64,000 bases of DNA from Acidobacteriota bacterium (GCA_965217775.1 CBDCJH010000002.1:3318686-3382685), one strand, 5' to 3'. Counted from the first letter of the stretch, positions 9,473 to 55,993 are shown. Notes: generated by a model not told the origin, from the sequence alone. Numbers and translations: made by a program.

Positions 9473-9499
9473 GGAAGCAAAAGACTGTCCCCTTTTCGG
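9473..9499 (+). promoter_or_regulatory. copy (a) of conserved intergenic motif GGAAG-N-GACTGTCCCCTTTTCGG
   Basis: GGAAGCAAAAGACTGTCCCCTTTTCGG. It lies in the intergenic region upstream of the oxidoreductase start at 9167. Confidence 0.5.
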
Positions 9500-9505
9500 G
9501 TGAGC

Positions 9506-12668: not shown

Positions 12669-12826
12669 CAGTCCGTGGTGAAAGTCCCGCGAGCACCGAG
12701 ACCGTTCCTGCGCCCGCCGGACAAGGCGCGATTCGGGTGCATACCGGGAGTATGTGCCCGAATCGCAACGCAGTCCGCCGGGATGCAGGGACGGTCGAAT
12801 GCCGTGGCGACTTTTGCCACGGGCTG
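12669..12826 (+). repeat. MITE-like repeat, family A, copy A3
   Basis: 158 bp. Terminal inverted repeats CAGTCCGTGGTGAAAGTC / GACTTTTGCCACGGGCTG. Flanked by the 4-bp direct repeat CTAT. Confidence 0.8.
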
Positions 12827-17908: not shown

Positions 17909-19741
17909 ATCGATGCCGGGAACCGGAAGAGACTCGGGGCGGCTCCGATTTCAGCCATGGGCGGGACCGCGAGGAAAGGTGGCTATCCATCTCGCCCTGG
18001 TTCTCGGCGTGGCCTTTTCCGCCGGCTGGCCGGACATCGTGGTGGCCAACTATGGCGAGGAGAGCGGGCATCGCCAAGGTTATCGCCTGCACCGGGAGTC
18101 GTATGTCTACTGGGGGGCTCCCGACGGGTACTCAGCCGAGCGGCGCACGTCCATCCCCACCTTGAGCGCCATCAGCTGTGCCGTCGGGGACTTCGACGGC
18201 GACGGATGGGCAGATCTCGCGTTTGCCAACAACAACCTCGAGCACCAGAGCCTGAGTCTCCATTGGGGCTCGAGCGCGGGATTCGACGGCGCCAGGCAGC
18301 TGGATCTGGAGGCGGGCAACCCGCGGCTGGTCCGAGCCGCCGATCTCGATCTCGACGGGACAGACGAACTGGTCGTGTTCTCGGGGAAGACGAGATCGGC
18401 CTTCTTCGATGCCGATCGAACCGAGAGATCCAACCTGGATTCGGGATCCGCGGGCCTTCTGCTCTTCCAAATCTCTGAAAGGCCCAGCTTGGGCCGGCCC
18501 CGGCGCCTGCCCGCCGAGGAGGTCCGGGAGGTGATCGCCCGGGACCTCAACGGAGACGGTCACGTCGACCTGACTCTGGCCGGCCAAGTCGCCGATCAAG
18601 GGTCGGAAGTCACGGGTTCGGCACTCTACTGGGGATCGGGCGCCGGATTCGATCCCGGGCGGCGGACCGTTCTGCCGACTCTTTCCCCGGGATCGGTGGC
18701 GTCTGCGGATCTCAACCGGGACGGCCATATCGACCTGGTCTTCGCCAACGCGGAAACCTCCAAGACCCACGACCCTCCCTCCCACATCTACTGGGGGTCG
18801 GAGAAGGGCTTCCACCCGGCCCGGCGCTCCCACCTGCAGGGGTTCGGAGCCGTCGGCGTGACGGCCGCGGACCTGAACCGGGACGGCCATCCCGAGATCG
18901 TGCTCATGAACCGGCTCAGCGGCAGGAAAGCGGGCGAAATTCCTTCGCTCATCTTCTGGGGGAACTCGGCCCATCACTACTCGGAGGCGAAAGCGGTAGA
19001 ATCGGTCCATATTTCCCCGATTTGTCGGCGAATAGAACAACTATGCACCTCCAAATCGAGAAAATCTGGCCTCGATTCCCCACTTTCTCGCTACGATCAT
19101 TTCTACCGCGCAGACTCCTGGTTTCCAGCAACTACAAGGCGGAGCAGACCCGGAGCCTTCCCGTCTTCATCTATTGGGGCAGCGCCGGGGCCGGCTACGA
19201 AAACCGCCGCAGGACCGAACTTCCGGCGGAATCATCCTGCGGCATCCAGTTGCTGGACCTGAATCAGGACCGGTACCCGGAGATCGTCGTCAAAAACCAC
19301 ATCAAGGATGGCGACCACAACTTCGGCGCCTACCTCTACTGGGGAGGCGAGGAGGGCTATTCCGTACAGCGCCGGACCCACCTTCCAACGGCGGGAACGC
19401 ATTTCGCTCATGGGATCGCTCCCGGCAACATCTATGACCGGGGTCCTGAGTACGACTATCTGTCGCCGGTGCTCCCGATCCCGGACAAACGGTGCTTCCT
19501 GGTTCCTGAATGGAGGGGTGAGACACCCCACAACACCTCGATCCGCATGCAGCTTCGCTTCGGATCTGACCAGTCACCATTGACTGGCGCCGCCTGGAGG
19601 GAGACCGGCCGCGGGGAGTGCCACTCCCTGAATGAGGATTCCGCGGCCCTGCAATACCGTGCCGTCCTGGTATCGCCGGATGGGGGCAACAGTCCCGTCC
19701 TGGAGGAAGTCATCCTGCGTTTCGTGGACTCATGTCCCTGA
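17895..19741 (+). pseudogene. FG-GAP/VCBS-repeat protein gene interrupted by a MITE-like element (two overlapping ORFs in different frames)
   Basis: Seven repeats of the type DLN-DG-x-D..(I/V)YWG-x-x-x-GF/Y-x-x-x-RR. The repeat series breaks at ..IFWGNSAHHYSEAKA (about 18986). It resumes in another frame at ..SSNYKAEQTRSLPVFIYWGSAGAGY (about 19119), with roughly one third of a repeat missing. Confidence 0.7.
18987..19118 (+). mobile_element. MITE-like repeat, family B, copy B1 (left end truncated), inserted in the FG-GAP gene
   Basis: 132 bp, nearly identical to 21424-21555 with 2 mismatches seen. More AT-rich than its surroundings. Internal inverted repeat GCGGTAGAA..TTCTACCGC. Confidence 0.8.
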
Positions 19742-19894
19742 CAATCCCGGGCTCACAGCCACGTTCAGGAGCGATCCCAAGGCCAGCCGGTACTGGGATG
19801 GCCGCCAAGTGTCGCTGGGCAGGATGACGAGGGGCTCCTTGCCTTGTCGCGCTGTTGCTTCCGCCGTCATATAGTATTGGCCAGGAACCTGCAG

Positions 19895-21361
19895 ATGTTT
19901 TCTTCCTTCCTCCTTCGAACCTTCCGGATCGCAGCCGGTTTCCCGCTGCTGGCGTCGTGTCATCCCACGCCTGAACCAGCGGATGCGTCGGAATCCTTGG
20001 CGATCGGCACGAGACTGGAACTGCTCCTGGACGACTATCTGATCGAGTCCCGCAGGAACCTGGAATTCGATGTCCATCAGCCTCGGCCTGCAGAGAAAGT
20101 GATGACCTTCGAAGCTCTCTGGGAGGGCCCCTTCTGCGATTACTTCACCGTCTTCGAGGACAAGGGTGTCTTCCGAATGTACTACGCGACTCACCCACAA
20201 GCAGGCTTCGCCTCGGACACGGATCAGTTCACCTGCTATGCGGAGAGCACGGACGGAATCCACTGGACGAAACCATGGCTCGGAATCGTCCAGTTCCAGG
20301 GATCCGGGAACAACAACATCATCAATCGAGGCTGGACCGCTCACAATTTCAGCCCCTTCATCGACACCAAACCGGGGACGCCTGCCGACCAACGATACAA
20401 AGCGGTCGGAGGTCATGCCCGGATCGGCGGGCTGAAGGTCTTCGCCTCGCGCGATGGCCTTCACTGGCGCCTTTTGGCCGAAGAGGCCCGGATCACCAAG
20501 GGCAGCTATCCGGAACCCGTGGGTTTCGATTCGCAGAACATCGCCTTCTGGGATCCGCGCCGAGAATCCTACTTCGCCTATTTCCGAGTCAAACACAACG
20601 GCAAGCGGGCCATCGGCATCAGCTCCTCGAAAGACTTTCTCCACTGGTCGGATCCCGAACTGGTACGGGTGGAAGCTCCTTCTCAGGAACACATCTATAC
20701 GAATGCGACGCTCCCCTATTTCCGAGCGCCTCACCTCTACCTGGCCTTTCCCATGCGTTATGCTCCCGGCCACCCCTCTTCGATCCCAGACACCAAGAGC
20801 GCCTGCGACGCTGTCTTGATGTCCAGCCGGGACGGCAGAAACTTCAAGCAGCATTCCAGCGAGCCTTTTCTCTGGCCCGGTCCCGAGAAGGAGAACTGGA
20901 CCAAGCACAGCAACATGCCGGCCTGGGGGTTGCTGGCCACATCGGAAACCGAGTTGTCGGTGTACTACACCCAGCATTTCTATCTCCCCACCGCCCACTT
21001 GAGGCGAGGAACAATGGGTATCGACCGCTTCGTCTCCCTGCACGCTCCCCTCTCAGGAGGGGAGTGGACCAGCAAACCGCTGCAATTCTCCGGCGATGAC
21101 CTGGTCCTGAATTACCGGACGAGCGCCGTCGGCAGCATCCGCGTGTCGATCCTGGACCGCGACGGGCAACCGCTGGACGGCTTCCAACTGGAGCAGTGCC
21201 CCGAGATTTACGGCGACGAGATCGCGCGCACTGTATCCTGGGAAGACGGCGGGGCGAAGCTGGCGAAACTGAAGGGTCAAATCGTCCGTCTGCGTTTCGT
21301 GATGGAGGATGCGGATCTCTTCTCGATCCAGTTCCGGGAGGCTCAGGCGGCCGGCAGCTGA
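19895..21361 (+). CDS. putative glycoside hydrolase-like protein, type A propeller/sandwich family (lipoprotein)
   Basis: Lipobox LLASC. Blocks LELLLDDYLIE, FRMYY, CYAESTDGIHWTKP, NNII, SRDGLHW, AFWD, PYFRAPHLY, SRDGRNF, GSIRVSILD, RLRFVMEDADLFS. Confidence 0.85.
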   Translation: MFSSFLLRTFRIAAGFPLLASCHPTPEPADASESLAIGTRLELLLDDYLIESRRNLEFDVHQPRPAEKVMTFEALWEGPFCDYFTVFEDKGVFRMYYATHPQAGFASDTDQFTCYAESTDGIHWTKPWLGIVQFQGSGNNNIINRGWTAHNFSPFIDTKPGTPADQRYKAVGGHARIGGLKVFASRDGLHWRLLAEEARITKGSYPEPVGFDSQNIAFWDPRRESYFAYFRVKHNGKRAIGISSSKDFLHWSDPELVRVEAPSQEHIYTNATLPYFRAPHLYLAFPMRYAPGHPSSIPDTKSACDAVLMSSRDGRNFKQHSSEPFLWPGPEKENWTKHSNMPAWGLLATSETELSVYYTQHFYLPTAHLRRGTMGIDRFVSLHAPLSGGEWTSKPLQFSGDDLVLNYRTSAVGSIRVSILDRDGQPLDGFQLEQCPEIYGDEIARTVSWEDGGAKLAKLKGQIVRLRFVMEDADLFSIQFREAQAAGS

Positions 21362-21394: not shown

Positions 21395-21555
21395 GGAGCC
21401 TGCGCGGCAGAAATTGATCTACTGCGAAAGCGGTAGAATCGGTCCATATTCCCCCGATTTCTCGGCGAATAGAACAACTATGCACCTCCAAATCGAGAAA
21501 ATCTGGCCTCGATTCCCCACTTTCTCGCTACGATCATTTCTACCGCGCAGACTCC
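21395..21555 (+). repeat. MITE-like repeat, family B, copy B2 (full length)
   Basis: 161 bp with about 38-bp imperfect terminal inverted repeats: GGAGCCTGCGCGGCAGAAATTGATCTACTGCGAAAGCGG versus the reverse complement of the right end GGAGTCTGCGCGGTAGAAATGATCGTAGCGAGAAAGTGG. The termini resemble family A termini. Confidence 0.75.
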
Positions 21556-21583
21556 CCGGTCCCTTCAACCTGGAGGACGGACG

Positions 21584-23107
21584 ATGAGAATGAGACTTTC
21601 GGCTCTCACGGCGGCCTTCCTGGCGCTCCCTCTGGGTGCGGCGCCCCCTGCAGAGCAGGCCGAATCCGGGAAGCCTATCGACATCGGCTCCCGACTGGAA
21701 CTTTTCGTCGATCACCACCTGATCGATCGGCTGGACGGAGCGCGCCTGATGATGGGACACCCCCGGCCGGCGGGAACAGTCCTGAAGGCGGATCGGCCGT
21801 GGGAGGGTCCCCACAACTGGGGTTTCCAGGTGATCCACGACGGCGGCGTCTATCGCATGTTCTACCGGGGATGGTCCGAAGACGGATCCGTCGTCCTCTG
21901 CTACGCCGAGAGCCGCGACGGTGTCCGCTGGGAGAAACCCAGTCTGGGGCTGCTGGAGGTGAATGGCACCCGGGAGAACAACGCGGTGGCCGTGGTCGAC
22001 GAGACCGGTCGCCGCCCGGTCCACTACCTTTTCCCTTTCATCGACGCCCGTCCCGGCGTGCCGGCCGCCGAGCGTGTGAAGGGAATCCGCGCCATCCTCC
22101 AGTCCAAGGAACCATTCCTCATGCACGTCTACCTGTACGGTTCCAAAGACTGGTTCCAGTGGCGGCGGCTACGCGAGGAACCCATCATCGCAACCGGAAT
22201 CCGCAACGCCTTCGATGCCTCCAACTACGTCTTCTGGTCGCAGACGGAGGGACTCTACGTCTGCTATTTCCGCTACATGGTAAAGCGCCCAAACAGCTCT
22301 TCTCCGTCAGGACTCCGATCCATTCAGCGTGCCACCTCCCGGGATCTGATTCACTGGTCCGAGCCGAAGGGGATGACCTACAGCGATACCGGGACCGTCG
22401 TACCCTCCGACCACTTGTACACCAACAACACGGAGCCCTATTTTCGAGCCCCCCATCTCTACGTGGCTCTGGCTGCCCGTTTCATGAAGGGCCGACGCGT
22501 CGTCACCGACGCCCAACTGGACCGGATGCGAGTGGCTTCACAAGGAGGCCACGCCTACTACGAGGACTGCTCCGACGGGGTGCTTCTGACGACCCGGCCC
22601 GGGACCACCCGGATCGACCGGACCTTCCTGGAGGCCCTGGTGCGGCCGGGGCGGGGACCGGAGAACTGGGTCTCCCGGACCAACTATCCCCTGAGGGGAG
22701 TGGTGCAGACCGGACCCGCGGAGATGTCGTTCTTCGTGAGCCGGCACTACGCCCAACCTTCCTGGCACATCGAGCGCATGACCCTGCGCCTGGATGGATT
22801 CAGCTCCGTTCGGGCTCCCTACCAGGGAGGCGAGATGCTCACCAGACCCCTGATCTTCTCGGGAAACCGGCTGGTGATCAACTACGCCACCAGCGCGGCC
22901 GGAAGTCTTCGAGTGGAGGTCCAGGACATGGGAGGCCAGCCTTTCCCCGGATTCTCTCTCTCCGATTGCCGGGAGATCATCGGGGACGAGATCGAACGTC
23001 TGGTCACGTGGGAAGGTCGCCAGGATCTGAGTCGTCTCTCAGGGAAGCCGGTTCGGCTGCGCTTCGTCATGAAGGATGCGGATCTCTACTCCATGAGATT
23101 CCGATAG
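21584..23107 (+). CDS. putative glycoside hydrolase-like protein, type A propeller/sandwich family
   Basis: Signal peptide. Blocks LELFVDHHLID, YRMFYRG, CYAESRDGVRWEKP, NNAV, PYFRAPHLY, LRLDGFSS, GSLRVEVQD, RLRFVMKDADLYS. Confidence 0.85.
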   Translation: MRMRLSALTAAFLALPLGAAPPAEQAESGKPIDIGSRLELFVDHHLIDRLDGARLMMGHPRPAGTVLKADRPWEGPHNWGFQVIHDGGVYRMFYRGWSEDGSVVLCYAESRDGVRWEKPSLGLLEVNGTRENNAVAVVDETGRRPVHYLFPFIDARPGVPAAERVKGIRAILQSKEPFLMHVYLYGSKDWFQWRRLREEPIIATGIRNAFDASNYVFWSQTEGLYVCYFRYMVKRPNSSSPSGLRSIQRATSRDLIHWSEPKGMTYSDTGTVVPSDHLYTNNTEPYFRAPHLYVALAARFMKGRRVVTDAQLDRMRVASQGGHAYYEDCSDGVLLTTRPGTTRIDRTFLEALVRPGRGPENWVSRTNYPLRGVVQTGPAEMSFFVSRHYAQPSWHIERMTLRLDGFSSVRAPYQGGEMLTRPLIFSGNRLVINYATSAAGSLRVEVQDMGGQPFPGFSLSDCREIIGDEIERLVTWEGRQDLSRLSGKPVRLRFVMKDADLYSMRFR

Positions 23108-24593: not shown

Positions 24594-24750
24594 AGTCTGT
24601 GGCGAAAGTCGTCACGCCATTCCACTGGGTCTGCATTCCGGCAGACCGGGTTGCTTCTCGATCACATAGGGTCGAATAGGTTCCCTCGTCGCGCCTTGTC
24701 CGGCGGACGCAGCCCCCGTCTCGGCGCTACGCAGGATTTCTACCACGGGA
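24594..24750 (-). repeat. MITE-like repeat, family A, copy A4 (inverted orientation)
   Basis: The reverse complement aligns with A1-A3 (..CCGCCGGACAAGGCGCGACGAGG.., ..GCCGGAATGCAGACCC..). It sits 50 bp upstream of the GH109-like start and directly abuts motif copy (c). Confidence 0.7.
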
Positions 24751-24804
24751 GGGAGAAATAGACTGTCCCCTTTTCGCCCTTTCCCCTTTTCGCCCTTTTC
24801 GGTC
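24751..24804 (+). promoter_or_regulatory. copy (c) of conserved intergenic motif, with internally triplicated CCCCTTTTCGCC tail
   Basis: GGGAGAAATAGACTGTCCCCTTTTCGCCCTTTCCCCTTTTCGCCCTTTTCGGTC. It lies in the divergent region between the GH109-like gene and the sulfatase at 24884. Confidence 0.5.
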
Positions 24805-27873: not shown

Positions 27874-27951
27874 AGGGGAAGAGAGGTGATCCCGATGAGA
27901 GGTCGTCCACGGGGGACCCGTTCCACGGTGCCGGGGATCTTCCTGCTGCGG

Positions 27952-29418
27952 ATGATGCTCCGCACGATTGTTCCTTTGCTGGCGCTCCTCGCCGTTATGC
28001 CTGCTGTTGCGCAAGAGAACGCGCGGCCGAACTTCCTGGTCGTGCTGGCGGACGATCTGGGCTATGGCGACCTGGCTGGTTACGGTCATCCCAGAATCAA
28101 GACACCGAACCTGGATCAGTTGGCGCGCGAAGGACTGCGGTTAACGAGCTGTTACGCGGCGGCGCCGAATTGCTCCCCGGCGCGGACTGGCTTCATGACG
28201 GGGCGGACACCCTATCGGGCCGGCGTGCACAACTGGATTCCCATGTTCTCGCCGGTGCACCTCCGGAGGGAAGAGATCACGGTCGCGACGCTGCTGCGGG
28301 ACGCTGGATACGACACGTGTCACGTCGGCAAATGGCATCTCAACGGTGACTTCAATCTGCCGACTCAGCCGCAACCCCGGGACCATGGCTTCAACTACTG
28401 GTTTTCCACGCAGAACAATGCCCTGCCGAACCACCGCAATCCCGACAACTTCGTCCGCAACGGCAGACCGGCTGGCCAACTCAGGGGCTATGCCGCCCCA
28501 CTGGTGACCGACGAGGCCATTCACTGGCTGAAGCACGTCCGGGACAAGACGAAGCCGTTCTTCATCTACGTCTGCTACCACGAGCCACACGAGCCGATCG
28601 CGAGCGACGAGCGTTTCACCGATCTCTATGCTTCCGACGACCCCAGTTATCGAGCTCATCACGGCAACATCACGCAACTCGACGATTCCTTTGGAAGGCT
28701 GGCCCAGACCATCGACGAGCTTGGTTTGCGCGACAACACCTTCGTCTTCTTCACCAGCGACAACGGGCCGGCGATCACGGGAATTCACCCGCATGGATCG
28801 GCGGGCCCCTTGCGCGACAAGAAGGGATATCTCTACGAGGGCGGCATCCGCGTCCCGGGCATCATCCGGTGGCCGGGGCAGGTAGAGGCGGGATCCGAGT
28901 CGGACGTTGCCGTCAGCGGCGTCGATCTACTGCCGACGCTCTGCGATCTCGCCGGCGTGGCCGTTCCCGGCAACCGTGCCTTCGACGGCATCAGCATTCG
29001 ACCTCTGCTGGCGGGAGAATCGCTGGAGCGGACGACACCACTCTATTGGCACTTCCTGCGCGCCCGCGGAAAGCCCAAAGTCGCCATGCGCTCAGGGGAC
29101 TGGAAGATCCTCGCGCATCTGGACCAGCCCGACCTGCGGGTCACTGCCGACATCGTGCCCGATGAGATGCGGATGCTGAAGACTGCGAGCCTGGCGCGGT
29201 TCGAACTGTACAATCTTCGCGACGACCTTGGTGAAACCAGGGACTTGGCGGAACGAGAGCCGCAGCAGCTTGCCAGACTTGCTGATCAGTTGCGGTCGAT
29301 GTATGCGGAGGTCCAGGCGGAGAGCCCGGTGTGGCCCGCCTGGAAGTGGCCCCGATACGAGGCGCAACGGATCGAGTGGCCACCGTACCGCAATCGGCCC
29401 AAGCCCGGGAACAAGTGA
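27952..29418 (+). CDS. S1 sulfatase, canonical CSPAR motif
   Basis: Signal peptide MMLRTIVPLLALLAVMPAVAQ. Blocks NFLVVLADDLGYGD, APNCSPARTGFMTGRTP, GKWHL, TSDNGP, KGYLYEGGIRVP. An upstream ATG at 27886 is also possible. Confidence 0.9.
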   Translation: MMLRTIVPLLALLAVMPAVAQENARPNFLVVLADDLGYGDLAGYGHPRIKTPNLDQLAREGLRLTSCYAAAPNCSPARTGFMTGRTPYRAGVHNWIPMFSPVHLRREEITVATLLRDAGYDTCHVGKWHLNGDFNLPTQPQPRDHGFNYWFSTQNNALPNHRNPDNFVRNGRPAGQLRGYAAPLVTDEAIHWLKHVRDKTKPFFIYVCYHEPHEPIASDERFTDLYASDDPSYRAHHGNITQLDDSFGRLAQTIDELGLRDNTFVFFTSDNGPAITGIHPHGSAGPLRDKKGYLYEGGIRVPGIIRWPGQVEAGSESDVAVSGVDLLPTLCDLAGVAVPGNRAFDGISIRPLLAGESLERTTPLYWHFLRARGKPKVAMRSGDWKILAHLDQPDLRVTADIVPDEMRMLKTASLARFELYNLRDDLGETRDLAEREPQQLARLADQLRSMYAEVQAESPVWPAWKWPRYEAQRIEWPPYRNRPKPGNK

Positions 29419-31007: not shown

Positions 31008-31059
31008 AATCCGTCCCAAGAGATTGAAGCACGGAGACCCGGCACTGCCCCCCCTGCCC

Positions 31060-31116
31060 GGAAGAAACAGACCGTCCCCTTTTCGGTCGGAAAAACAGAC
31101 TGTCCCCTTTTCGGTC
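31060..31116 (+). promoter_or_regulatory. copies (d1, d2) of conserved intergenic motif, direct tandem
   Basis: GGAAGAAACAGACCGTCCCCTTTTCGGTC followed directly by GGAAAAACAGACTGTCCCCTTTTCGGTC. They lie in the divergent region between the sulfatase (minus strand) and the MFS gene (plus strand). Confidence 0.55.
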
Positions 31117-33886: not shown

Positions 33887-35533
33887 ATGACTCTCCCCCT
33901 CCGTGAGGACGCCGCCCCGGCGGCGCGGGCCGTAAAAACCGCTGCCCCGAGTTGGCATGCCATGAAGCCGATGGATCTGAAAGGCTCTATGGAACTGGCC
34001 GGCCGAAACTTGGTGGCGAACCTCTGTCCTACGCGCAACTACCTCCCCTATTGGGCGATCGAAATCGACTCCGGTTATGGAGCCTGGGCGCGCTTCACCT
34101 GGCCCCAGCACAACGTCGGCCGATGGTGGGATGCGATGCTGCGGCTGGAGGCCGCGACCGGATTCCGGATTCCGCCCGATCGGGAAGCCGCCATGTTGGG
34201 CAATCTGCACTCCTTTTTCGACAACCCCGATCACTTCTGCCTCGCTCCTCGCCATTTCGAGGGGCCCGGACTGGAGCTCCACTCCCTGAGAGAGGGTCTG
34301 CAGGCCCTGGTCGCGCTGGCGCGCCACCGGAACAGCCGTTGGGCGGAGCGGAAGGGCCGGCTGATGATCGAATCCCTCCTGCGGGTATCCGACGGGAAGG
34401 GAGGTTGGAAGCTCCAGGAGATCGACTCTGCCCGGCATTTCGACAAAGGGTATTACCAGAAGGTCAAGCCGGTGAGCAGTAGCACGGACGGACGGTTGAT
34501 CGAGGCCCTGGTCTGGTTCTATCAGTCCACGCACGATCCCCTGGCGCTGGCTGCGGCCCGGCGCTTTGCCAAGTACCACCTTCCGCACACGACCCATCCT
34601 GACGGCCGCCTGAACCTCGCTTCGGGATCGAATCACACCCATTCGTATTTCGGGACGCTCCGGGGTTTGCTTCTCTACGGCGAACTCACGGATCAGCACG
34701 GGTACGTCGATGCGGTAGAGTCGACATATCGGAGGACGGTTCGCACGATGGTCAAGAGATCGGGATTCATCTCCCACGACCTGGGAATGGACAACCGGGG
34801 AGAGACGGCTTCCCCTGGCGACGCCGCTCAACTGGCTCTGTGGCTGGCAACCCGGCACGGCTTCACGGAGTACCTCGACGATGTGGAGCGGATCGTCCGA
34901 GCACGGATCCTCCCTTCACAGGTCACAGAGACGCCGCCACTCCATCCCTCATCGGACGGGGACGGGGACGGGGACGGCGACGAATACCGGAATCTCCGGG
35001 CCCGTGTCCTGGGAGCCTACGGGGGCATGCACCTGGAACCCCATTCCGGCACCAAACCCACCACCGATGTCACGGCAGCCTGCCTCCACACTCTTGCGGA
35101 CATCTATCACCACGTCCTCTTGAGGGGCGATTCCGGACTGAAGATCCTGCTGCACCTGGACTACGAAGATTCGAGAGCCCGAATCCGATCCCGGAGAGGA
35201 GAGAGAACGGGCCGCCTGACGGTGCTGCCCCGAATCCGGGAGAATGTCCTGATCCGTATCCCTCGATGGACGCCCCTGAGTTCGGTCCGTCTCAGGGTAC
35301 GCGGCGCTCCGCTCGACCCGAAAATCTATGGAGACTTCGTCCTCATCGCCGGGAATCTCATGCCGGCGGAAATCACCCTCGAATACGGCCTGCCCGTGAC
35401 CCGGGAGGTCGAACGGACGACCGGTGTGGATTACCATTTGATGTGGCGGGGCGACGAAGTCATCGGGATCACGCCCAACAACCGCTTCTATCCCTTCTAC
35501 CCGGACTATCCTGGTGAGACGGAAACAGAATGA
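33887..35533 (+). CDS. hypothetical protein, possibly an alpha/alpha-toroid glycoside hydrolase/lyase-like fold
   Basis: Long ORF with codon usage like its neighbours and no motif I can assign. The helix-rich repeats (..WWDAMLRLEAATG.., ..LIEALVWFYQSTHDPLALAAARRFAKY.., ..AAQLALWLATRHG..) suggest an (alpha/alpha)6-type fold. Contains a DGDGDGDGDE stretch. Confidence 0.5.
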   Translation: MTLPLREDAAPAARAVKTAAPSWHAMKPMDLKGSMELAGRNLVANLCPTRNYLPYWAIEIDSGYGAWARFTWPQHNVGRWWDAMLRLEAATGFRIPPDREAAMLGNLHSFFDNPDHFCLAPRHFEGPGLELHSLREGLQALVALARHRNSRWAERKGRLMIESLLRVSDGKGGWKLQEIDSARHFDKGYYQKVKPVSSSTDGRLIEALVWFYQSTHDPLALAAARRFAKYHLPHTTHPDGRLNLASGSNHTHSYFGTLRGLLLYGELTDQHGYVDAVESTYRRTVRTMVKRSGFISHDLGMDNRGETASPGDAAQLALWLATRHGFTEYLDDVERIVRARILPSQVTETPPLHPSSDGDGDGDGDEYRNLRARVLGAYGGMHLEPHSGTKPTTDVTAACLHTLADIYHHVLLRGDSGLKILLHLDYEDSRARIRSRRGERTGRLTVLPRIRENVLIRIPRWTPLSSVRLRVRGAPLDPKIYGDFVLIAGNLMPAEITLEYGLPVTREVERTTGVDYHLMWRGDEVIGITPNNRFYPFYPDYPGETETE

Positions 35534-38085: not shown

Positions 38086-39717
38086 CTACTCCTCCAGGAA
38101 TCGGAAGGCGAAAAGACGGGAGTTCTTCAGGTAGAACTTGAGCTTGATGACTTGACCCTCCAATCCGCTCAGTTCGCTACGGCCGTTCCAAGCGGCGATC
38201 CCGGTTCGCGTCAGGGGATCCGAGTCCTGAAACGTGTGTCCCCGGACCCGGAAGTAATCTCCAGCCAGGATCTCCACCCGGACCTCCCCGGAGCCGGTCT
38301 TCGGCCCCTTCGCCAGGTTGACCTCGAGACGCTTGCCGGAGAAGGAAAAGGCCCGCGTGATCACCTGCGCGTAGCCCTCGGCGCCATCCGTCCGGGCGGC
38401 GTCTTCGATCGAGCCCAACGCCTTGGCGTTGAAGCCGGCTCCCGCTTCGGTCGCTCCCGGCTCCAGGGAGACGAAACCGTCCATCGGAATCGTGGCCACT
38501 CCCATGGCGCCCATGGGTCCGGGGCCGCCGACCTCGCGAAAGAGACGATCCCGGAAGTTGGTGCCGTGGTAGAAGATGAAGAAACGATCCCCATGGAGAA
38601 TGGGTTGCTGGGCGTAGATGGTCACGGAATCCCAGGCCGGCTCCTCTCCCAGCCGAATGAAGGGCTCCCGGTAGCGCCTGTCCCAGTGAATCCCGTCACG
38701 GCTGAAGACGAACTGGGGCCATATGTAGAGCGGGTCCTCGGGAGTCCTCCGGCCGGGACGATAGTTCCAGAGCATCCCCAGGTAGAGGCCTTCATGGGTG
38801 GTGGCCCACATGCTGTAGAAATGCAGCCCTGCCGGGTCCCGGTCGTCGGGGACGATAATGGTCTGGGGATCGGACCAGTGAATCAGGTCCCGGCTTTCGG
38901 CTCTCCCGATCAGCCGCATCCGCAGCCCGCAGCGCTTATGCTGGCAGTTCTCCATGTGCATGGCATAGACCTGACGGATCGGATCCCAACCGACGGTGGC
39001 CGTCGGTCCCCACAGATAGCTCTGGTACCCTCTCCGCCTGGCCCAGGGTTCGCCTTCGGGATTAACCTTGGCAGGTCCCGAGGGACGAATTACGGGGTTG
39101 CCCGGGTGGGGCACCCAGTTGAAGGCGTCGGCCGAGTAGTAGAGGTTCCAAACCCGGGTCCTCTTGACCTCCAACTGTCCGGGGACGGTCCCTTCGGCTG
39201 CCACCTGGGCCAGCGCCTTGTAGCGGCGTGAGGGGTCCTGCTCGCGGGGATCGACGAAGATGCCGCCTTTGATGGAAGGCCAGTTCGCGGGCGCCAGGAT
39301 GTTGTTGTCCCGGGAACCCCGGAACTCCACGAAACCCAGCGAGGGCTTTTCCCACCGGTAACCGTCCCGGGATTCGGCGTACAGGAATTTCCGGTCCTTG
39401 CCGTTGGGTTTTCCATCTTCGTCGGCGTACAGGACACTCGAGGTGTACCACATGCGAAACCGTTGGCGGGCGTCATCGTAGAAAACGGTCCCGTAGTGCA
39501 GAGACTGCCCCTCCCAGGGACGGTCCTGGCGGATGACCGGGTTTCCTTCATGCTTCCGGGCGGTATGGAATACGCGACGGGCGCCCACCAGAGCCTCGAC
39601 CAGGTATTCGTCCAGAAACATCTGCTTCTGGGAACCGATGTGGATGAGCCCGGGAGGACCGGCCTGCACCGCACCGCCCAGCCAGACGTAGAGCGCCAAT
39701 AAGAATCGACCCTGCAT
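38086..39717 (-). CDS. putative glycoside hydrolase-like protein, type B propeller/sandwich family
   Basis: Signal peptide. Blocks QMFLDEYLVE, GNPVI, PWEG, FRMWY, YAESRDGYRWEKP, NNIL, SADAFNW, SRDGIHW, VIKLKFYLKNSRLFAFRF. It is a paralog of 46621-48165. Confidence 0.85.
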   Translation of the reverse strand: MQGRFLLALYVWLGGAVQAGPPGLIHIGSQKQMFLDEYLVEALVGARRVFHTARKHEGNPVIRQDRPWEGQSLHYGTVFYDDARQRFRMWYTSSVLYADEDGKPNGKDRKFLYAESRDGYRWEKPSLGFVEFRGSRDNNILAPANWPSIKGGIFVDPREQDPSRRYKALAQVAAEGTVPGQLEVKRTRVWNLYYSADAFNWVPHPGNPVIRPSGPAKVNPEGEPWARRRGYQSYLWGPTATVGWDPIRQVYAMHMENCQHKRCGLRMRLIGRAESRDLIHWSDPQTIIVPDDRDPAGLHFYSMWATTHEGLYLGMLWNYRPGRRTPEDPLYIWPQFVFSRDGIHWDRRYREPFIRLGEEPAWDSVTIYAQQPILHGDRFFIFYHGTNFRDRLFREVGGPGPMGAMGVATIPMDGFVSLEPGATEAGAGFNAKALGSIEDAARTDGAEGYAQVITRAFSFSGKRLEVNLAKGPKTGSGEVRVEILAGDYFRVRGHTFQDSDPLTRTGIAAWNGRSELSGLEGQVIKLKFYLKNSRLFAFRFLEE

Positions 39718-46620: not shown

Positions 46621-48165
46621 TTATTTCTGGGCGGTGACCGGGTTTCCCGGTACGAACTGGAAAGCGAACAGCTTCGCGTTCTTGAAGTGGAATCGGAGCT
46701 TGACCGGCTTTCCGGCAAGTCCCGCCACGTCGGAACTTCCCCTCCAGGTGACCAGCCGTCCCATGCCGGTCTCACTGAGAGGATCACAGTCGTCGAAACC
46801 GTAACCGGAAATCGGTTTGTAGTCGGTTCCCAGAATCTCGACCCGGACCTCTGCGGGATGAGCTCCCCAACGCTGGAAGGCCGCCCGCAGATTGAGCCGC
46901 AGCTCGCTGCCGGAAAAGGTGAAGGTCCGGGTAACGGCCTTGCTGAAGGCCAGTTTTGAACCGTCCAGAGAAACGAAGCCATCCAAGGGCAGAATCGCCA
47001 ATCCGATGGCTCCGTAGGCCCGCTCTTCCCCCAGCATCTCCAGTTGTTCCGGGGACCTCCAGTTCACCCCGCCGTAGTAGAAGAAGATCTTCTCCCCTTG
47101 GATGGCCGGTCTGAGGCCGTAGATCGCCACCGAGTCGAAGGCGTCCCCCGCTCCGGCCGGTATGAACGGACTGCGGTAGCGGCGGTCATAGTGGATGCCA
47201 TCCCGGCTGAAGACGAATTGGGGCAGGATCGTGGTGTTCGTGGTCCTGAAGTTCCAGAGCATTCCGATGGTGAATCCTTCGTAGGCAGTGGCGTGAAGCG
47301 AGTAGAACTCGGTGTCGGGATAATCATGGCCGTCGGGAAGGATGACCGGGACGGCTTCGCTCCAACGGATCATGTCGGGGCTCTCCGCTCGCCCGATGAA
47401 ACGTTTGCCCAGGGGGCATCTCTGATGACCGCAGATCTCCATGTGGGCGACGTAGACTTGGTGCACGGGATCCCAACCCATCACCGATGTCGGTCCCCAG
47501 CGGCCCTTGCGCTCTCCCCAGTCGATGACCGGATTGCCGGGATGGGCCGACCAGTTGAAGGCGTCTCCGGAATGGTAGAGATGGAACTGCATCCCGGTCC
47601 TTCCCGTCTCGTTGGAAAGCTTTCCCCCCACGGTCTGCACCATGGCTTTGTAGCGTTTCGACGGATCCGGCTCCCGGGCATCGAAGACGATGCCACCCTT
47701 GAATCCGAGCCAGTTGTCCTCACCGACGATGTTGTTGTCCCGGGAGCCGGCGAACTCCACCAGCCCCAGTGAAGGTTTATCCCAACGGTAGCCGTCGGAG
47801 GAAGTGGCGTAGCAGATTCGACGGCCCGCGCTTTCGGGTTCTCCTCCGGCAACGGGAGTCCAATTGCTGGTCGAGTACCACATCCGGAATTTCCGTTGAT
47901 CCGGGTCATAGAAAACCGTTCCGTAGTGGATGTAGTTGCCTTCCCAGGGGCGGTCCCGAGGGATGACGGGATTGTCGACCGCCTTGCGGGGATGATTCAG
48001 GACCAGCGCCGTGTCCTCCAGGGACTCCAGCAGAAACTCGTCCAGGAAAAGTTGTTTGCTGCTCCCAATGGGGATGATGCTGCCGTTGCGAGGGGCAGCG
48101 GCCGTCTGGATCTGCATCAGCACCAGACTCGATACCAGCAACGTCAGGACTCTTACCATCCGCAT
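46621..48165 (-). CDS. putative glycoside hydrolase-like protein, type B propeller/sandwich family
   Basis: Signal peptide. Blocks QLFLDEFLLE, DNPVI, PWEG, FRMWY, YATSSDGYRWDKP, NNIV, SGDAFNW, SRDGIHY, VKLRFHFKNAKLFAFQF. Confidence 0.85.
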   Translation of the reverse strand: MRMVRVLTLLVSSLVLMQIQTAAAPRNGSIIPIGSSKQLFLDEFLLESLEDTALVLNHPRKAVDNPVIPRDRPWEGNYIHYGTVFYDPDQRKFRMWYSTSNWTPVAGGEPESAGRRICYATSSDGYRWDKPSLGLVEFAGSRDNNIVGEDNWLGFKGGIVFDAREPDPSKRYKAMVQTVGGKLSNETGRTGMQFHLYHSGDAFNWSAHPGNPVIDWGERKGRWGPTSVMGWDPVHQVYVAHMEICGHQRCPLGKRFIGRAESPDMIRWSEAVPVILPDGHDYPDTEFYSLHATAYEGFTIGMLWNFRTTNTTILPQFVFSRDGIHYDRRYRSPFIPAGAGDAFDSVAIYGLRPAIQGEKIFFYYGGVNWRSPEQLEMLGEERAYGAIGLAILPLDGFVSLDGSKLAFSKAVTRTFTFSGSELRLNLRAAFQRWGAHPAEVRVEILGTDYKPISGYGFDDCDPLSETGMGRLVTWRGSSDVAGLAGKPVKLRFHFKNAKLFAFQFVPGNPVTAQK

Positions 48166-48189: not shown

Positions 48190-49836
48190 TCAAGACTCGG
48201 GCCGGGCAAACCGAATCGAGAAGAGGTCCGCATCCTTCATCACGATACGGAGCCGAACGACCCGGCCTTCCAGGCGGCTCAAGTCGGAGCCCTCCGCCCA
48301 GCGTACGACCTGCTCGATCTTGTCTCCGATGATCTCGGGACAATCGGCCAGCCGGAACCCCGGGATCGGTTCGCCTTCCGCGTCCTGGATTTCCACGCGG
48401 AGGCTGCCGGCCGCCGAGGTCGAGAAGTTCAGGACGAGTTTCGTCCCCTGGAATTTCAAGGGACGGGTCACCATCTCGCCGCCATCGTAATTCGCGTGCA
48501 GGGAGGCAAAGCCGTCGCTGCGCAGAATGTAGCGCCTCACGTGACCCGAAGGCAGCTCGTAGTGACGCGTCACGTAGAAGGACACCTCATCCCCGGCGGT
48601 GGGGACGATCCCGATTCCGGGAAAGTTGGTCCGAGTGCCCCAGTTCTCGAGTCCGGGACCCGGCCGCAGAAAGGCCTCGGGGAAGGTCCGCTCATAACTG
48701 TCCCCTCCGCGGCTGGTCAGGAGGATGGCGTCCGAGCAGTTCTTCCAGGTCCACCAGGGCATCCCATCCGGCTGGAGGGACCGGCCCTCCTCTTCGCTCA
48801 AGGCCTGCTGGCCGGGCAGGAAGCGTGCGGCCAGACCGATGTAGAGATGGGGCGCTCGAAAGTAGGGTTGGGTCGCGCTGGTATAGAGCTGTTCGTTCAC
48901 GGTGGGAGGGTACTGGCTGAATTTCATCGTCTGCCAGTCACTCCAGTGGACCAGATCCTGAGAGACGGCCCGCTGGATGGTCCGGATCACCCCGGTTCTC
49001 TTCCAGGTCCGGCCGCCGTCCGCAGAGTAGCGGAAAGCGTCGTCGCCGGCCCGGTCCCCGCCGAGAATGGAGAACTCCCCCTTTCTGGTGAGCAAGGATC
49101 GGAACGAGGCGGGATCGTCACCCAAACGCCTGATTTTCAATCCCAGTTCGACGTTGGAACGGCCGAACGCCACATAACAATTTTCCGTTTCACTCCAGAA
49201 AAGACTCGCGCCTTCGATGGAAGGCCGGTCGTGGAGCTTCCTCCAATGGATGCCGTCAGCCGAGACCAGGATCCGGGAGCCAGTCTCGGGTGTCGATCTC
49301 GGCGGGGCCTTCACCGCCTTGAAGCGCTCTGAGGGAGGCACCCCGGGACGGGTATCCAGGAAGGGAGTGAATCCGCTGGAATCGAACAGAACGTTGTTGT
49401 TCCGCGTTCCCCTGATCTCCACCAGACCGAGGTTCGGCTTGGACCACTGGATCCCGTCGGAACTCGACGCGTAGCAGGTGGACTCGGTCAGTGCCTCCGT
49501 CTGGGGGTTCCAGACCATGCCCCGGTAGTACATGTGGTAGCTCTCCCCGTCCTTCACGACGTTGGGAAAGGCGGAGCCCAGACCTTCCCAGGGCCGGTCG
49601 AATTGGATGGCCACCTCCGCCGGCCGGGGATGATGCAACTGGAGACGGACCCCCTCCATCCGCTGGATCAGGTAATGGTCCACGAACAGCTCCAGTCGAG
49701 ATCCGATGTCTGGAATCGGCTCGCTTCCTGCCGCGGCGAAACCATTCCCCAAAAGGAGAGCTACACCCGTGGCCAATGCCAGCACTCGTCCAGGCCTCCA
49801 GTTGAAGCACCGTTTCGCGGGTGGATTCTTGCTCAT
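48190..49836 (-). CDS. putative glycoside hydrolase-like protein, type A propeller/sandwich family
   Basis: Signal peptide. Blocks LELFVDHYLIQ, PWEG, YHMYYRG, CYASSSDGIQWSKP, NNVL, SADGIHW, PYFRAPHLY, LRSDGFAS, GSLRVEIQD, RLRIVMKDADLFS. It carries an extra insert relative to its paralogs. Confidence 0.85.
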   Translation of the reverse strand: MSKNPPAKRCFNWRPGRVLALATGVALLLGNGFAAAGSEPIPDIGSRLELFVDHYLIQRMEGVRLQLHHPRPAEVAIQFDRPWEGLGSAFPNVVKDGESYHMYYRGMVWNPQTEALTESTCYASSSDGIQWSKPNLGLVEIRGTRNNNVLFDSSGFTPFLDTRPGVPPSERFKAVKAPPRSTPETGSRILVSADGIHWRKLHDRPSIEGASLFWSETENCYVAFGRSNVELGLKIRRLGDDPASFRSLLTRKGEFSILGGDRAGDDAFRYSADGGRTWKRTGVIRTIQRAVSQDLVHWSDWQTMKFSQYPPTVNEQLYTSATQPYFRAPHLYIGLAARFLPGQQALSEEEGRSLQPDGMPWWTWKNCSDAILLTSRGGDSYERTFPEAFLRPGPGLENWGTRTNFPGIGIVPTAGDEVSFYVTRHYELPSGHVRRYILRSDGFASLHANYDGGEMVTRPLKFQGTKLVLNFSTSAAGSLRVEIQDAEGEPIPGFRLADCPEIIGDKIEQVVRWAEGSDLSRLEGRVVRLRIVMKDADLFSIRFARPES

Positions 49837-52482: not shown

Positions 52483-52515
52483 CAGACTGTCCCTATCTCT
52501 GAGAAGGGGACAGTC
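52483..52515 (+). promoter_or_regulatory. copy (e) of conserved motif, here as a complete hairpin
   Basis: CAGACTGTCCC-TATCTCTGAGAAG-GGGACAGTC: a 9-bp stem with a 13-nt loop. It lies 115 nt upstream of the racemase GTG. Confidence 0.45.
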
Positions 52516-55813: not shown

Positions 55814-55970
55814 CGGTTTCAACTCCTGCAGGATGGGTGCCACACGAAGCGACACAATTGTCTGGTGGCCGAAGTATAGCACCCGTCCCCCCGGCGATCA
55901 TGCTCCGGGAGCCTCACTGGAGCCGGCAAATCGCGGTGGAGGGATTGGAACGATCCGGCCTGTAGATCGT

Positions 55971-55993
55971 GAAAAATGGACTGTCCCCTTTTT
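55971..55993 (+). promoter_or_regulatory. copy (f) of conserved intergenic motif (degenerate 5' part)
   Basis: GAAAAATGGACTGTCCCCTTTTT. It lies 158-180 nt upstream of the DUF1080 start at 55813. Confidence 0.4.

What the first reader, a model, noticed from the sequence alone, without database searches (positions are those of the whole stretch)
31060..31116. Strand-oriented 25-30-nt motif GGAAGAAACAGACTGTCCCCTTTTCGGTC, six loci, all in 5' intergenic regions
The loci are 9473-9499, 10793-10832, 24751-24804, 31060-31116 (tandem pair), 52483-52515 (where it forms a hairpin with its own complement) and 55971-55993. Every copy is on the plus strand and none lies in a coding region. Each locus lies upstream of at least one gene start. 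It could be an operator or a promoter element; GAAAC-N15-CGGTC loosely resembles ECF-sigma promoters. That would fit an island with no regulator gene in the window. Alternatively it is the end of a mobile or recombinogenic element, because copy (b) abuts the hydantoinase-fragment breakpoint and copy (c) abuts MITE A4.
Basis: partly seen in the sequence, partly recalled or inferred. Interest (0 to 1): 0.7.

Follow-up and report, generated by a model that had tools for sequence, protein, structure and literature searches.

The report
Co-oriented junction repeat in sulfatase island
A real 30-base DNA motif, found only in one group of Acidobacteriota and only inside their sulfatase-rich sugar-degradation island, sits between gene modules always pointing the same way and marks where the island has been cut, duplicated and re-ordered; it is not an ECF-type promoter.

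Summary
The motif is real. Its consensus is CCGGAAGAAAYAGACTGTCCCCTTTTCGGTC. The window holds 7 strong copies at 5 loci, plus one doubtful hairpin locus (e). All copies are on the + strand and all are intergenic, with 0 expected by chance.

It is not a genome-wide repeat. Related 5-6 Mb chromosomes hold the exact 18-mer once. Every family member found lies in the same sulfatase/glycan-degradation island (~70 kb by my estimate) of one genus-level Acidobacteriota clade.

Relatives add 8 more loci, for 13 in all, and every one is co-oriented. They occur in divergent, tandem and convergent (3'-3') gaps alike. In one relative, six consecutive gene junctions each carry a copy.

The invariant part is GACTGTCCC, which is the supposed "spacer". 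The supposed -35 AAC and -10 CGGTC are poorly conserved, so the ECF-promoter reading fails.

Copies share nothing beyond about 32 nt. Several inter-strain breakpoints and truncated genes fall within about 12 nt of a motif edge or inside the motif.

Best reading (about 0.35): an att-like recombination or junction site bound by an unknown protein. Main rival (about 0.25): an operator for an island-specific regulator. No recombinase or regulator gene was found nearby.

The parts
9473..9501 (+). Copy a: GGAAGCAAAAGACTGTCCCCTTTTCGGGT. It ends 4 nt before the stop codon (9506-9508) of the minus-strand M19 dipeptidase gene. It lies 316 nt upstream of the GFO/IDH/MocA oxidoreductase start (9167), and that gap contains a 170-nt MITE.
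   Evidence: (D18); orthologous copies in L010, L042-L044 and L050
10790..10832 (+). Copy b: CCC GGAAGAAACAC GGAAGAAACAGACTGTCCCCTTTTCGGTC. It is a full unit preceded by an 11-nt partial duplication that is absent in L042. It lies in the divergent gap between the M19 gene (start 10588) and a mosaic of pseudogene fragments plus the sulfatase gene at 11213.
   Evidence: orthologues in L049 and L050
24751..24804 (+). Copy c: GGGAGAAATAGACTGTCCCCTTTTCG, followed by reiterated right halves (CCCTTTCCCCTTTTCG CCCTTTTCGGTC). Its left edge abuts the 4-nt-truncated end of MITE A4 (24599-24748). It is absent from L004/L013, whose homology stops at 24742/24748.
31057..31088 (+). Copy d1: CCCGGAAGAAACAGACCGTCCCCTTTTCGGTC. 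It lies in the divergent gap between a lipoprotein sulfatase (true TTG start about 30977) and an MFS permease (start about 31246).
31088..31116 (+). Copy d2: CGGAAAAACAGACTGTCCCCTTTTCGGTC, abutted head-to-tail to d1 with a 28-nt period. The copy number differs in L007 (one unit plus a 16-nt partial) and in L004/L013 (one unit).
   Evidence: alignment A1
55969..55993 (+). Copy f: GTGAAAAATGGACTGTCCCCTTTTT, with A-tract and core only. It ends 4 nt before the stop codon of the minus-strand amidohydrolase gene and lies 97 nt upstream of the 3-keto-disaccharide hydrolase start. It is conserved in L052, where homology to the window ends inside its T-run.
52485..52515 (.). Locus e, a doubtful member: GACTGTCCCTATCTC TGA GAGAAGGGGACAGTC. 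This is an inverted pair of a diverged core that forms a hairpin. It lies inside a 209-nt segment (52409-52617) absent from L050 and L052.
   Evidence: z = -2.3; weight-matrix score below 14

Best explanation
The motif is a discrete, asymmetric repeat of about 32 bp. Its invariant core is GACTGTCCC(C)T, preceded by an A-tract and followed by a T-tract. It is private to the sulfatase/glycan-degradation island of one genus-level Acidobacteriota clade.

I read it as an att-like recombination or junction site. Copies sit between gene modules, all in one orientation regardless of how the flanking genes point. Modules bounded by copies are gained, lost, duplicated and re-ordered between strains without inversion, and many of these breakpoints lie at or very near a motif edge.

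Shown:
- the anatomy of the motif
- its restriction to the island
- co-orientation of all copies
- independence from gene direction
- core conservation at orthologous sites
- coincidence of breakpoints with motif edges

Inferred:
- that a sequence-specific protein (a recombinase acting in trans, encoded elsewhere) binds the core
- that serial conservative recombination at the site generated the gene-site-gene-site arrays

Short-homology (RecA-type) exchange between the direct repeats may contribute.
For: 1. Discrete unit. Non-orthologous copies share no flanking similarity, while b and d1 are 28/29 identical.

2. Island-private.
- The exact 18-mer occurs once in each related 5.2-6.2 Mb chromosome record.
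- A weight-matrix scan of 436 kb of held sequence separates family members (score at least 41.9) from chance 18-mer hits (score at most 31).
- There are no copies in the held sequence flanking the island.
- There are none in more distant relatives or in viral contigs.

3. Thirteen loci (a, b, c, d, f; g, h, i; j, k, l, b'; m) are all co-oriented in a common frame, with no inverted segment. Taking 10 as independent gives p of about 2^-9.

4. In L050, six consecutive junctions carry a copy: dsulf|j|DUF507|k|sulf488|b|M19|l|sulf449|b'|M19'|a|G1.
- The modules are single genes of 1.2-2.0 kb on either strand.
- Junctions j and l are in convergent gaps.

5. Breakpoints at or near motif edges:
- c left edge against L004/L013
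- b right edge in L042, next to a truncated sulfatase fragment
- f right edge in L052, next to a truncated amidohydrolase
- k1 left edge, 4 nt from a truncated sulfatase fragment
- j right edge
- l, which joins the 3' flank of sulf449 (shared with i) to the M19 3' flank of a
- about 6 of 9 window-versus-L050 junctions coincide with a motif (my count)

6. Complete sites occur at both ends of the array (g and m), and there are no solo half-sites.
Against: - No integrase, resolvase or transposase with matching ends was found in the window or in about 30 kb of flanking sequence from relatives.
- The site lacks the inverted-arm architecture of classical tyrosine or serine recombinase core sites. 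Its palindromicity is not significant (p about 0.1).
- Junction l is not a clean crossover. It is a full unit, then 35 nt, then a half unit.
- Some indels are not bounded by the motif. Examples are the G1/G1' collapse, the 19-kb block absent from L050, and the TnpB-plus-sulfatase insertion.
- A- and T-tracts in a 63% G+C genome attract IS and MITE insertions. That alone could create some edge breakpoints.
- Strong core conservation is equally expected for a regulatory protein site.
Confidence: 0.35

Rival explanations
1. The motif is the operator or activator site of an island-specific transcription factor encoded elsewhere. In this reading it marks a regulon of sulfatase and glycan-degradation operons. 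Co-orientation and edge breakpoints would be secondary effects: spread by non-inverting duplication, ectopic exchange between repeats, and fork stalling at a tightly bound protein.
For: - The motif is strictly intergenic.
- The core is the best-conserved block of the d intergenic region at about 88% relatives.
- b is retained upstream of M19 in L049 and L050. f and a are also retained in relatives.
- Full-length copies g, b, c and d lie about 120-155 nt upstream of the first start codon of + strand operons, and a TTGAC-like hexamer follows (my counts from the sequences).
- No canonical sigma-70 promoter is present at these loci.
- The motif is confined to one functional island.
Against: - Two copies lie in convergent gaps.
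- Orientation relative to neighbouring genes takes all four possible combinations, while absolute orientation is constant.
- Distance to the M19 start varies from 45 nt (L049) to 216-237 nt.
- The distance to the TTGAC-like hexamer varies from 37 to 131 nt.
- d is lost in L050 although both flanking genes are intact. c is absent from L004/L013.
- Near-identity over 29 nt between unrelated loci is more than regulon sites usually show.
- No regulator gene lies in the island (about 70 kb by my estimate).
Confidence: 0.25
2. The motif is a repeat with little or no present function. In this reading, its copies were spread by old segmental duplications. Its AT-rich tracts make it a target for IS and MITE insertion and for slippage, which would produce the local instability.
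For: - h and a are paralogous copies carried by the G1'/G1 tandem duplication.
- b' is a duplicate of b.
- An IS sits in the T-run of f in L052, with target duplication AATAAA.
- MITE A4 abuts c.
- Small tandem duplications also occur outside the motif, for example in L007.
- g is degenerate in L042.
Against: - The core shows 4 changes in 220 aligned positions across 22 copies, while the arms and flanks diverge.
- It is intact in h and a although their surrounding intergenic DNA no longer aligns.
- Most copies share no flanking homology, so segmental duplication does not explain their dispersal.
Confidence: 0.15
3. The motif is a polar, protein-bound replication-fork barrier, working like Ter. 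In this reading, a cluster of co-oriented asymmetric sites arrests forks from one direction. Arrested forks would make the sites hot spots for deletion and duplication.
For: - The core is asymmetric and invariant.
- There are few copies per genome.
- The sites are co-oriented and independent of gene direction.
- Deletion endpoints lie at site edges, and small tandem duplications occur at the sites.
- The island lies at 2.42-2.44 Mb of a 5.17 Mb chromosome record. That would be near mid-chromosome if the record starts at the origin, which is unknown.
Against: - The density is far above that of known fork traps: 13 loci in an island of about 70 kb, and one copy per gene junction in L050.
- No dif-like site was found in the held sequence.
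- GC skew is uninformative.
- ATP synthase genes lie about 8 kb away. From general knowledge, these are often closer to the origin than to the terminus.
- No oppositely oriented set of sites is known.
Confidence: 0.08
4. The motif is an ECF-sigma (or other alternative sigma) promoter, GAAAC-N15-CGGTC, driving + strand transcription.
For: - b and d literally contain GAAAC-N15-CGGTC.
- There are no sigma-70-like promoters at the loci.
- Full-length copies lie upstream of + strand operons.
Against: - The conservation profile is the inverse of a bipartite promoter. The 'spacer' is invariant, the -35 C is present in 9/22 copies, and the -10 bases are present in 11-15/22.
- The spacing is broken by 9-32-nt reiterations in c.
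- Five of 13 loci face the 3' end of a minus-strand gene (a, h, f, j, l).
- No ECF sigma or anti-sigma gene is in the window.
Confidence: 0.03
5. The motif is a structured RNA element or an intrinsic terminator half.
For: - e and f can fold into hairpins (z about -2.3 to -2.4).
- Unrelated Acidobacteriota carry the same 18-mer as the 3' arm plus T-run of terminator-like hairpins (L014, L015, L041).
Against: - Copies a-d show no structure on either strand (z from -1.5 to +1.2).
- There are no terminator-like hits at the loci.
- There is no Rfam family match.
- Orientation relative to transcription is not constant.
- The distant hits lack the family's flanks and score at chance level.
Confidence: 0.03

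Closest known systems
Integron cassette arrays (attC sites), especially sedentary chromosomal integrons
   Same: Both have co-oriented, mutually similar sites at successive junctions between mostly single-gene modules. In both, module content and order vary between strains. A toxin-antitoxin module sits at one end of the array.
   Different: - The site is about 32 nt and unstructured. It has no R''/R' core sites and no bottom-strand hairpin.
- Genes lie on either strand.
- The modules are 1.2-2 kb catabolic genes.
- No intI gene is nearby.
Tandem accretion of integrated elements at one att site (ICE/CIME accretion, composite SCC elements with direct repeats)
   Same: An identical short core is repeated in direct orientation at each junction. 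Some copies lie immediately past the stop codon of a gene (a, f, h). Modules without their own integrase could be mobilised in trans.
   Different: - No integrase, excisionase or conjugation genes were seen.
- The modules are single metabolic genes.
- No tRNA or conserved target gene defines the site.
- The comparison rests on general knowledge and was not tested.
Tus-Ter / RTP-Ter replication fork traps
   Same: Both have an asymmetric conserved core and a handful of co-oriented, mostly intergenic copies at unrelated loci. From general knowledge, Ter sites are known deletion hot spots.
   Different: - The density is much higher and the sites are confined to one catabolic island.
- The terminus position is unknown.
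- No Tus/RTP candidate was found.
- No opposing set of sites is known.
REP/BIME and other intergenic repeat families
   Same: Both are short intergenic repeats. Both occur singly or in small tandem clusters that vary between strains, and both are associated with IS insertion and rearrangement.
   Different: - The motif is not palindromic.
- It is not genome-wide.
- All copies share one orientation.
ECF-sigma promoters (AAC-N16/17-CGT type)
   Same: There is a superficial GAAAC-N15-CGGTC match in two loci.
   Different: The conservation pattern, spacing and gene context are all wrong.

Membership tests
ECF-sigma promoter | Conserved -35 (AAC) and -10 (CGT) blocks separated by a spacer that is variable in sequence but fixed in length (16-17 nt) | tested here: not met
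   the spacer bases are invariant, the -35 C is present in 9/22 copies, and CGGTC is present in 11-15/22. The spacer is 15 nt in b and d. It is lengthened by 9-32 nt in c.
ECF-sigma promoter | Fixed orientation upstream of the transcribed gene | tested here: not met
   Five of 13 loci face the 3' end of a minus-strand gene. Two lie in convergent gaps.
ECF-sigma promoter | Cognate sigma/anti-sigma genes, usually autoregulated nearby | tested here: not met
   Pfam found none among about 39 window genes. Elsewhere in the genome was not testable.
Integron attC | R'' (RYYYAAC) and R' (GTTRRRY) core sites flanking an imperfect palindrome | tested here: not met
   no such pair lies within about 100 nt of any of 13 junctions, on either strand.
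Integron attC | Single-strand hairpin fold | tested here: not met
   z-scores for a-d range from -1.5 to +1.2.
Integron attC | Adjacent intI integrase and attI | tested here: not met
   No integrase Pfam hit was found in the window or in the held flanks.
Integron attC | Co-oriented sites between successive cassettes | tested here: met
   six consecutive junctions in L050 each carry a copy.
att core of site-specific integration / accretion arrays | The same core in direct orientation at every junction, complete at both array ends | tested here: met
att core of site-specific integration / accretion arrays | Presence/absence polymorphism of modules with breakpoints in or at the core | tested here: inconclusive
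   At least six breakpoints lie within about 12 nt of a motif edge or inside the motif. No clean empty-site/occupied-site pair was found, and some indels are not motif-bounded.
att core of site-specific integration / accretion arrays | Cognate recombinase and excised circular form | not testable with these tools
   None was found in held sequence. Testing needs the whole genomes and long reads.
REP/BIME (RAYT-associated) | Imperfect palindrome; hundreds of copies genome-wide | tested here: not met
   Searches show no palindrome. One search shows one exact copy per related chromosome.
Intrinsic terminator | G+C-rich hairpin followed by a T-run, downstream of a gene in its sense orientation | tested here: not met
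   Only unrelated distant hits (L015, L014, L041) have this form.
Terminus of MITE A or another longer repeat | The motif is always contiguous with the same longer element | tested here: not met
   MITE A has its own inverted ends and a 4-bp target duplication, and it inserts or is absent independently of the motif. Flanks of the copies are unrelated.
Transcription-factor operator | Conserved at orthologous promoters; fixed geometry to the promoter; regulator identified | tested here: inconclusive
   It is conserved at d, b, a and f. The geometry is variable, two copies are in convergent gaps, and the regulator is unknown.
Known RNA families (Rfam 15) | Match at the gathering score | tested here: not met
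   only a group II intron fragment matched, and it lies elsewhere.

The most novel reading that the evidence does not exclude
The sites would be polar binding sites for an unknown protein that arrests replication forks. That would make them a Ter-like fork trap in Acidobacteriota, a phylum where I know of none described. Fork arrest would drive the deletions, duplications and module shuffling seen at their edges.

A second, less exotic novel reading is my best explanation taken literally. That reading is an integron-independent gene-cassette system that shuffles single catabolic genes through a 32-bp site (probability about 0.3, interest about 0.75).
Probability: 0.08. Interest if true: 0.85.

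Novelty: new variant of a known kind. Interest (0 to 1): 0.55.

Why it matters
Large sulfatase and glycoside-hydrolase islands let bacteria degrade sulfated polysaccharides. How such islands expand and re-assort their many paralogous genes is poorly understood outside the Bacteroidota.

A short, oriented site at module boundaries that coincides with rearrangement breakpoints would give a concrete and testable mechanism for that plasticity. The candidate mechanisms are a cassette-like exchange system, a recombination hot spot created by a bound protein, or a fork barrier.

If the site instead proves to be an operator, it would define the regulon of an Acidobacteriota glycan-degradation island that has no regulator gene of its own. 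Either way the 32-mer is a ready bait for identifying the protein.

Tried and rejected
- **Rfam.** Scans at gathering and E-value thresholds found only a group II intron D1-D4 fragment at 13075-13218.
- **tRNA scan.** None found, so there is no tRNA-type att target.
- **My early idea of a group II intron link.** I thought the motif might relate to the 3' end or homing site of the intron. This was rejected because the 'intron-like' repeat is an independent 162-nt MITE, precisely present or absent between strains.
- **RNA folding of both strands.** No structure for a-d.
- **Promoter and terminator scans.** Nothing at the loci.
- **Exact 18-mer scans.**
  - The genome and metagenome scans gave 15 and 26 stretches, about what I estimate chance would give; the viral scan gave 1.
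  - Apart from the close relatives, the hits are coding-sequence or terminator-hairpin coincidences that lack the family flanks.
  - I first took L014, L015 and L001 as distant family members and then withdrew that.
- **Link to the MFS gene.** An 81%-identical orthologue in another context has no motif.
- **More distant relative.** A relative whose 959-aa protein is 79% identical has no motif in 23 kb.
- **Cassettes bounded by inverted ends.** I considered TGT...ACA ends with a GAC target duplication. This was rejected because no solo half-sites exist and the array ends carry complete units.
- **attC core sites and palindromicity.** Both negative.
- **dif-like sites and GC skew.** Uninformative.
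- **Literature.** A string search for the core returned only unrelated primers.
- **Failed look-ups.** Three exact-protein look-ups failed, probably because of my start-codon choices. One Pfam call failed on a stop codon.

Full report
- The 29-mer GGAAGAAACAGACTGTCCCCTTTTCGGTC matches at 10804, 31060 and 31088 at up to 3 mismatches, against 0.00 expected.
- The 22-mer adds 9480 and 24758.
- The 11-mer core adds the reiteration at 24781, a weaker copy at 55983, and the minus-strand arm of the hairpin at 52501.
- Direct reading confirms the tandem pair at d, the reiterated right half at c, and an 11-nt partial duplication at b.
- All strong copies are on the + strand.
- Using gene models inferred from ORFs, codon-position G+C and Pfam, all copies are intergenic. 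Intergenic DNA is only 11.6% of the window.
- Locus e is a 15-nt inverted repeat of a diverged core. It scores below threshold with a matrix built from the other copies, so I treat it as doubtful.

**2. Context.**
- The window is 62.6% G+C.
- It encodes about ten sulfatases and at least eight paralogues of a roughly 500-aa family without Pfam hits.
- It also encodes BNR/sialidase-like, LamG, GH109, GFO/IDH/MocA, an M19 dipeptidase, an MFS permease and a TonB-type outer-membrane barrel.
- It contains no regulator, sigma factor or recombinase.
- Close relatives are Acidobacteriota MAGs at 97-99% identity (L007, L010, L042-L044) and 88-95% identity (L004, L013/L052, L049, L050, L051).

**3. Anatomy.** Twenty-two copies from the window and relatives align without gaps.
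- GAC(T)GTCCC is invariant apart from one T>C.
- The next C is 19/22, and T at +10 is 22/22.
- The A-tract at positions -7 to -3 is about 20/22.
- The outer arms (CCGGAAG on the left, CGGTC on the right) are present in 11-16 of 22 copies.
- Copies a, f and h lack the outer arms.
- Beyond about 32 nt, non-orthologous copies share nothing.
- The unit is not significantly palindromic and does not fold.
- Whole or partial units are tandemly reiterated, and the reiteration differs between strains:

| Locus | Source | Reiteration |
|---|---|---|
| d | window | two units |
| d | L007 | about 1.5 units |
| d | L004/L013 | one unit |
| c | window | three right halves |
| c | L007 | two right halves |
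| b | L042 | lacks the left partial duplication seen in the window |
| m | L052 | a second 28-nt tandem pair |

**4. Distribution.**
- The exact 18-mer AGACTGTCCCCTTTTCGG occurs in 15 stretches in 185,579 species genomes. I estimated about 17 by chance.
- Four of those stretches are close relatives of the window. Each of the three complete-chromosome records (5.2, 5.5 and 6.2 Mb) has it once, at the orthologue of d.
- The metagenome scan gave 26 stretches, almost all in coding sequence of unrelated organisms.
- In a weight-matrix scan of all 436 kb held at that point, family members score at least 41.9 and the chance 18-mer hits at most 31.
- The family is therefore private to this clade and to this island.
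- It is absent from held sequence outside the island, from a context-shifted MFS orthologue, from a more distant relative and from viral contigs.

**5. Relation to genes.** Relatives add these loci:

| Locus | Where |
|---|---|
| g | between an antitoxin gene and a 599-aa sulfatase gene (L043, L044) |
| h | between the tandem paralogues G1' and G1 |
| i | downstream of the orthologue of sulfatase 11213-12598 (L042) |
| j, k, l, b' | L050 and L051 |
| m | just beyond the right end of the window (L052) |

- In a common frame, all 13 loci are co-oriented, and no segment is inverted between genomes.
- The neighbours on the two sides take all four possible combinations (my classification):

| Gap type | Loci |
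|---|---|
| divergent | b, b', c, d, m |
| tandem + | g, i, k |
| tandem - | a, h, f |
| convergent | j, l |

- The motif therefore tracks junctions between genes rather than the direction of transcription.
- In L050, six consecutive junctions each carry a copy, separating single-gene modules of 1.2-2.0 kb.

**6. Comparative evidence for recombination at the site.**
- *c.* Homology of L004/L013 to the window stops at 24742/24748, at the 4-nt-truncated end of MITE A4 and the left edge of c. A different gene follows.
- *b.*
  - The left flank is shared by the window, L042 and L050.
  - To the right, L042 has no detectable similarity to the window. Its sequence departs about a dozen bases past the core into a truncated sulfatase fragment interrupted by a TnpB element.
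  - In L050 the homologous flank is displaced by 34 nt of reiterated right half.
  - In L049 the motif lies 19 nt from the M19 ribosome-binding site, instead of 216 nt from the start codon.
- *f.* Homology between the window and L052 ends inside the T-run. A truncated amidohydrolase and an IS with the target duplication AATAAA follow.
- *k1.* It lies 4 nt from the truncated end of a 290-nt sulfatase 3' fragment.
- *j.* Homology to window position 29460 resumes directly after the reiterated right half.
- *l.* It joins the 3' flank of sulf449 (the flank that carries i in L042) to the 3' flank of M19 (the flank that carries a). This is the novel junction of an apparent tandem duplication of M19-b-sulf449. 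The join is not clean: a full unit, then 35 nt, then a half unit.
- *a.* Relative to L049, the window lineage carries about 6 kb inserted between the M19 stop codon and DUF2911. Divergence begins directly after the stop codon, and copy a ends 4 nt from that stop.
- Not every indel is motif-bounded. Examples are the G1/G1' collapse, the 19-kb block missing from L050, and the TnpB-plus-sulfatase insertion right of the amidohydrolase.

**7. Conservation.**
- At d, the block AAAACAGACTGTCCCCTTTTCGGT is the only long run of invariant columns in the intergenic region among four genomes. Mean column identity across the alignment is 72%.
- The cores of b, a and f are intact in relatives at 88-95% identity.
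- Sites can also be lost:
  - d is replaced in L050 although both neighbouring genes persist.
  - g is degenerate in L042.
  - c is absent from L004/L013.

**8.
- The ECF-promoter reading fails on conservation profile, spacing and context (section 3).
- The 'terminus of a longer repeat' reading fails.
  - MITE A is a separate 162-nt element. It has inverted ends CAGYCCGTGG and a 4-bp target duplication, and it is precisely present or absent at 12669-12830.
  - It abuts the motif only at c.
- The 'recombinogenic element' reading is supported in the sense of sections 5 and 6.

**9. Best explanation and rivals.**
- I favour an att-like junction site (0.35).
  - Serial conservative recombination between a site on an incoming or looped-out module and a chromosomal site is the simplest process that yields gene-site-gene-site arrays. 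It explains co-oriented complete sites, arbitrary gene orientation, near-identical units with sharp edges, and order changes without inversion.
  - Recombination with secondary sites would give the truncated neighbours.
  - Missing pieces: no recombinase was found, and the site lacks classical inverted arms.
- The main rival is an operator for a regulator encoded outside the island (0.25). It explains the conservation and the restriction to the island. It does not explain the co-orientation, the convergent copies or the breakpoints.
- A largely functionless repeat whose AT-rich tracts attract insertions and slippage (0.15) explains some of the instability but not the invariant core.
- A Ter-like polar fork barrier (0.08) explains the polarity and the deletion hot spots but not the one-per-junction density.
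- ECF promoter and RNA or terminator readings are about 0.03 each.

**10. Novelty and interest.**
- No library or literature match exists for the sequence.
- It resembles several known kinds of element (attC arrays, att accretion arrays, Ter sites, REP). It fails every defining test I could apply for membership of any of them.
- I rate it a new variant of a known kind (an oriented inter-module repeat or recombination site), of moderate interest.
- It is real, lineage-specific and mechanistically unexplained. It is directly testable with the complete genomes and long reads that already exist.

Noticed in passing
window 7477-7641, 9217-9386, 12669-12830 (one orientation) and 24599-24748 (opposite orientation): A true MITE of about 162 nt. 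It has inverted ends CAGYCCGTGG... and a 4-bp target duplication (CTAT, TTAA, TCAW), plus an internal long hairpin. The copy at 12669-12830 is precisely absent from L043 and L044.
   Followed up: yes
window 13075-13218 (-), extending to about 13243: A group II intron D1-D4 fragment (Rfam RF02003, 85 bits). It has no ORF and no domain V/VI. It is also present in L043. In L042 the same intergenic region instead carries motif copy i.
   Followed up: partly
window 57120-57845 (-); L042 about 8405-9665: A truncated TnpB (OrfB_IS605 plus Cas12f1-like TNB). It is 98.6% identical to a full 382-aa TnpB element in L042. That element is bounded by perfect 23-bp inverted repeats GGATTATAAAGAGTGGTTGACAC, which is unusual for an IS605-type element, and it is inserted in a sulfatase fragment next to motif b.
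   Followed up: partly
window 10833-11212 and 6351-7385: Pseudogene debris. It includes a 60-nt sulfatase signal-peptide fragment (92% identical to 27948-28007) and a C-terminal fragment of the 500-aa family (82% identical to 4410-4606). There is also a sulfatase gene lacking its N-terminal half; the full 599-aa gene is present in L042-L044.
   Followed up: partly
window 18987-19132 and 21424-21569; L043 9436-9592: A 146-nt direct repeat (95% identical) sits upstream of two paralogous 500-aa genes. A third copy sits next to motif b in L043 and L044. It may be another small mobile or duplicated element.
   Followed up: no
window 1039-2541, 2942-4483, 19844-21361, 21584-23107, 33887-35533, 38086-39717, 46621-48165, 48190-49836: At least eight paralogues of a protein of about 500-550 aa with no Pfam family. 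Most share the C-terminal sequence RFVMKDADLYS. One has a weak GH32-like hit. This is probably an undescribed glycoside hydrolase family expanded in this island.
   Followed up: no
window 52409-52617: A 209-nt segment between the alpha/beta hydrolase and racemase genes that L050 and L052 lack; in L050 the two gene calls overlap, in L052 they are 2 nt apart. It contains hairpin e.
   Followed up: partly
L043 18573-20509 (also in L042 and L044): A pair of adjacent HTH_PafC/WYL/WCX genes (PafBC-like) lies 2-4 kb beyond the left end of the island, after a Phd/PIN toxin-antitoxin module, DUF2911 and a Cu/Zn superoxide dismutase. These are the only DNA-binding proteins seen near the island.
   Followed up: no
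L007 about 7050-7085 (orthologue of window about 30985): A 16-nt tandem duplication (TGCCCTTCCAGGCGAG, two copies) in the d intergenic region, outside the motif. It shows that small tandem duplications are common in this lineage's intergenic DNA.
   Followed up: no
L052 13046-15005: An IS with a 584-aa DDE_Tnp_1 transposase, inverted ends CTGAAGTTCCA and target duplication AATAAA. It is inserted in the T-run of motif f in the L013 chromosome.
   Followed up: partly
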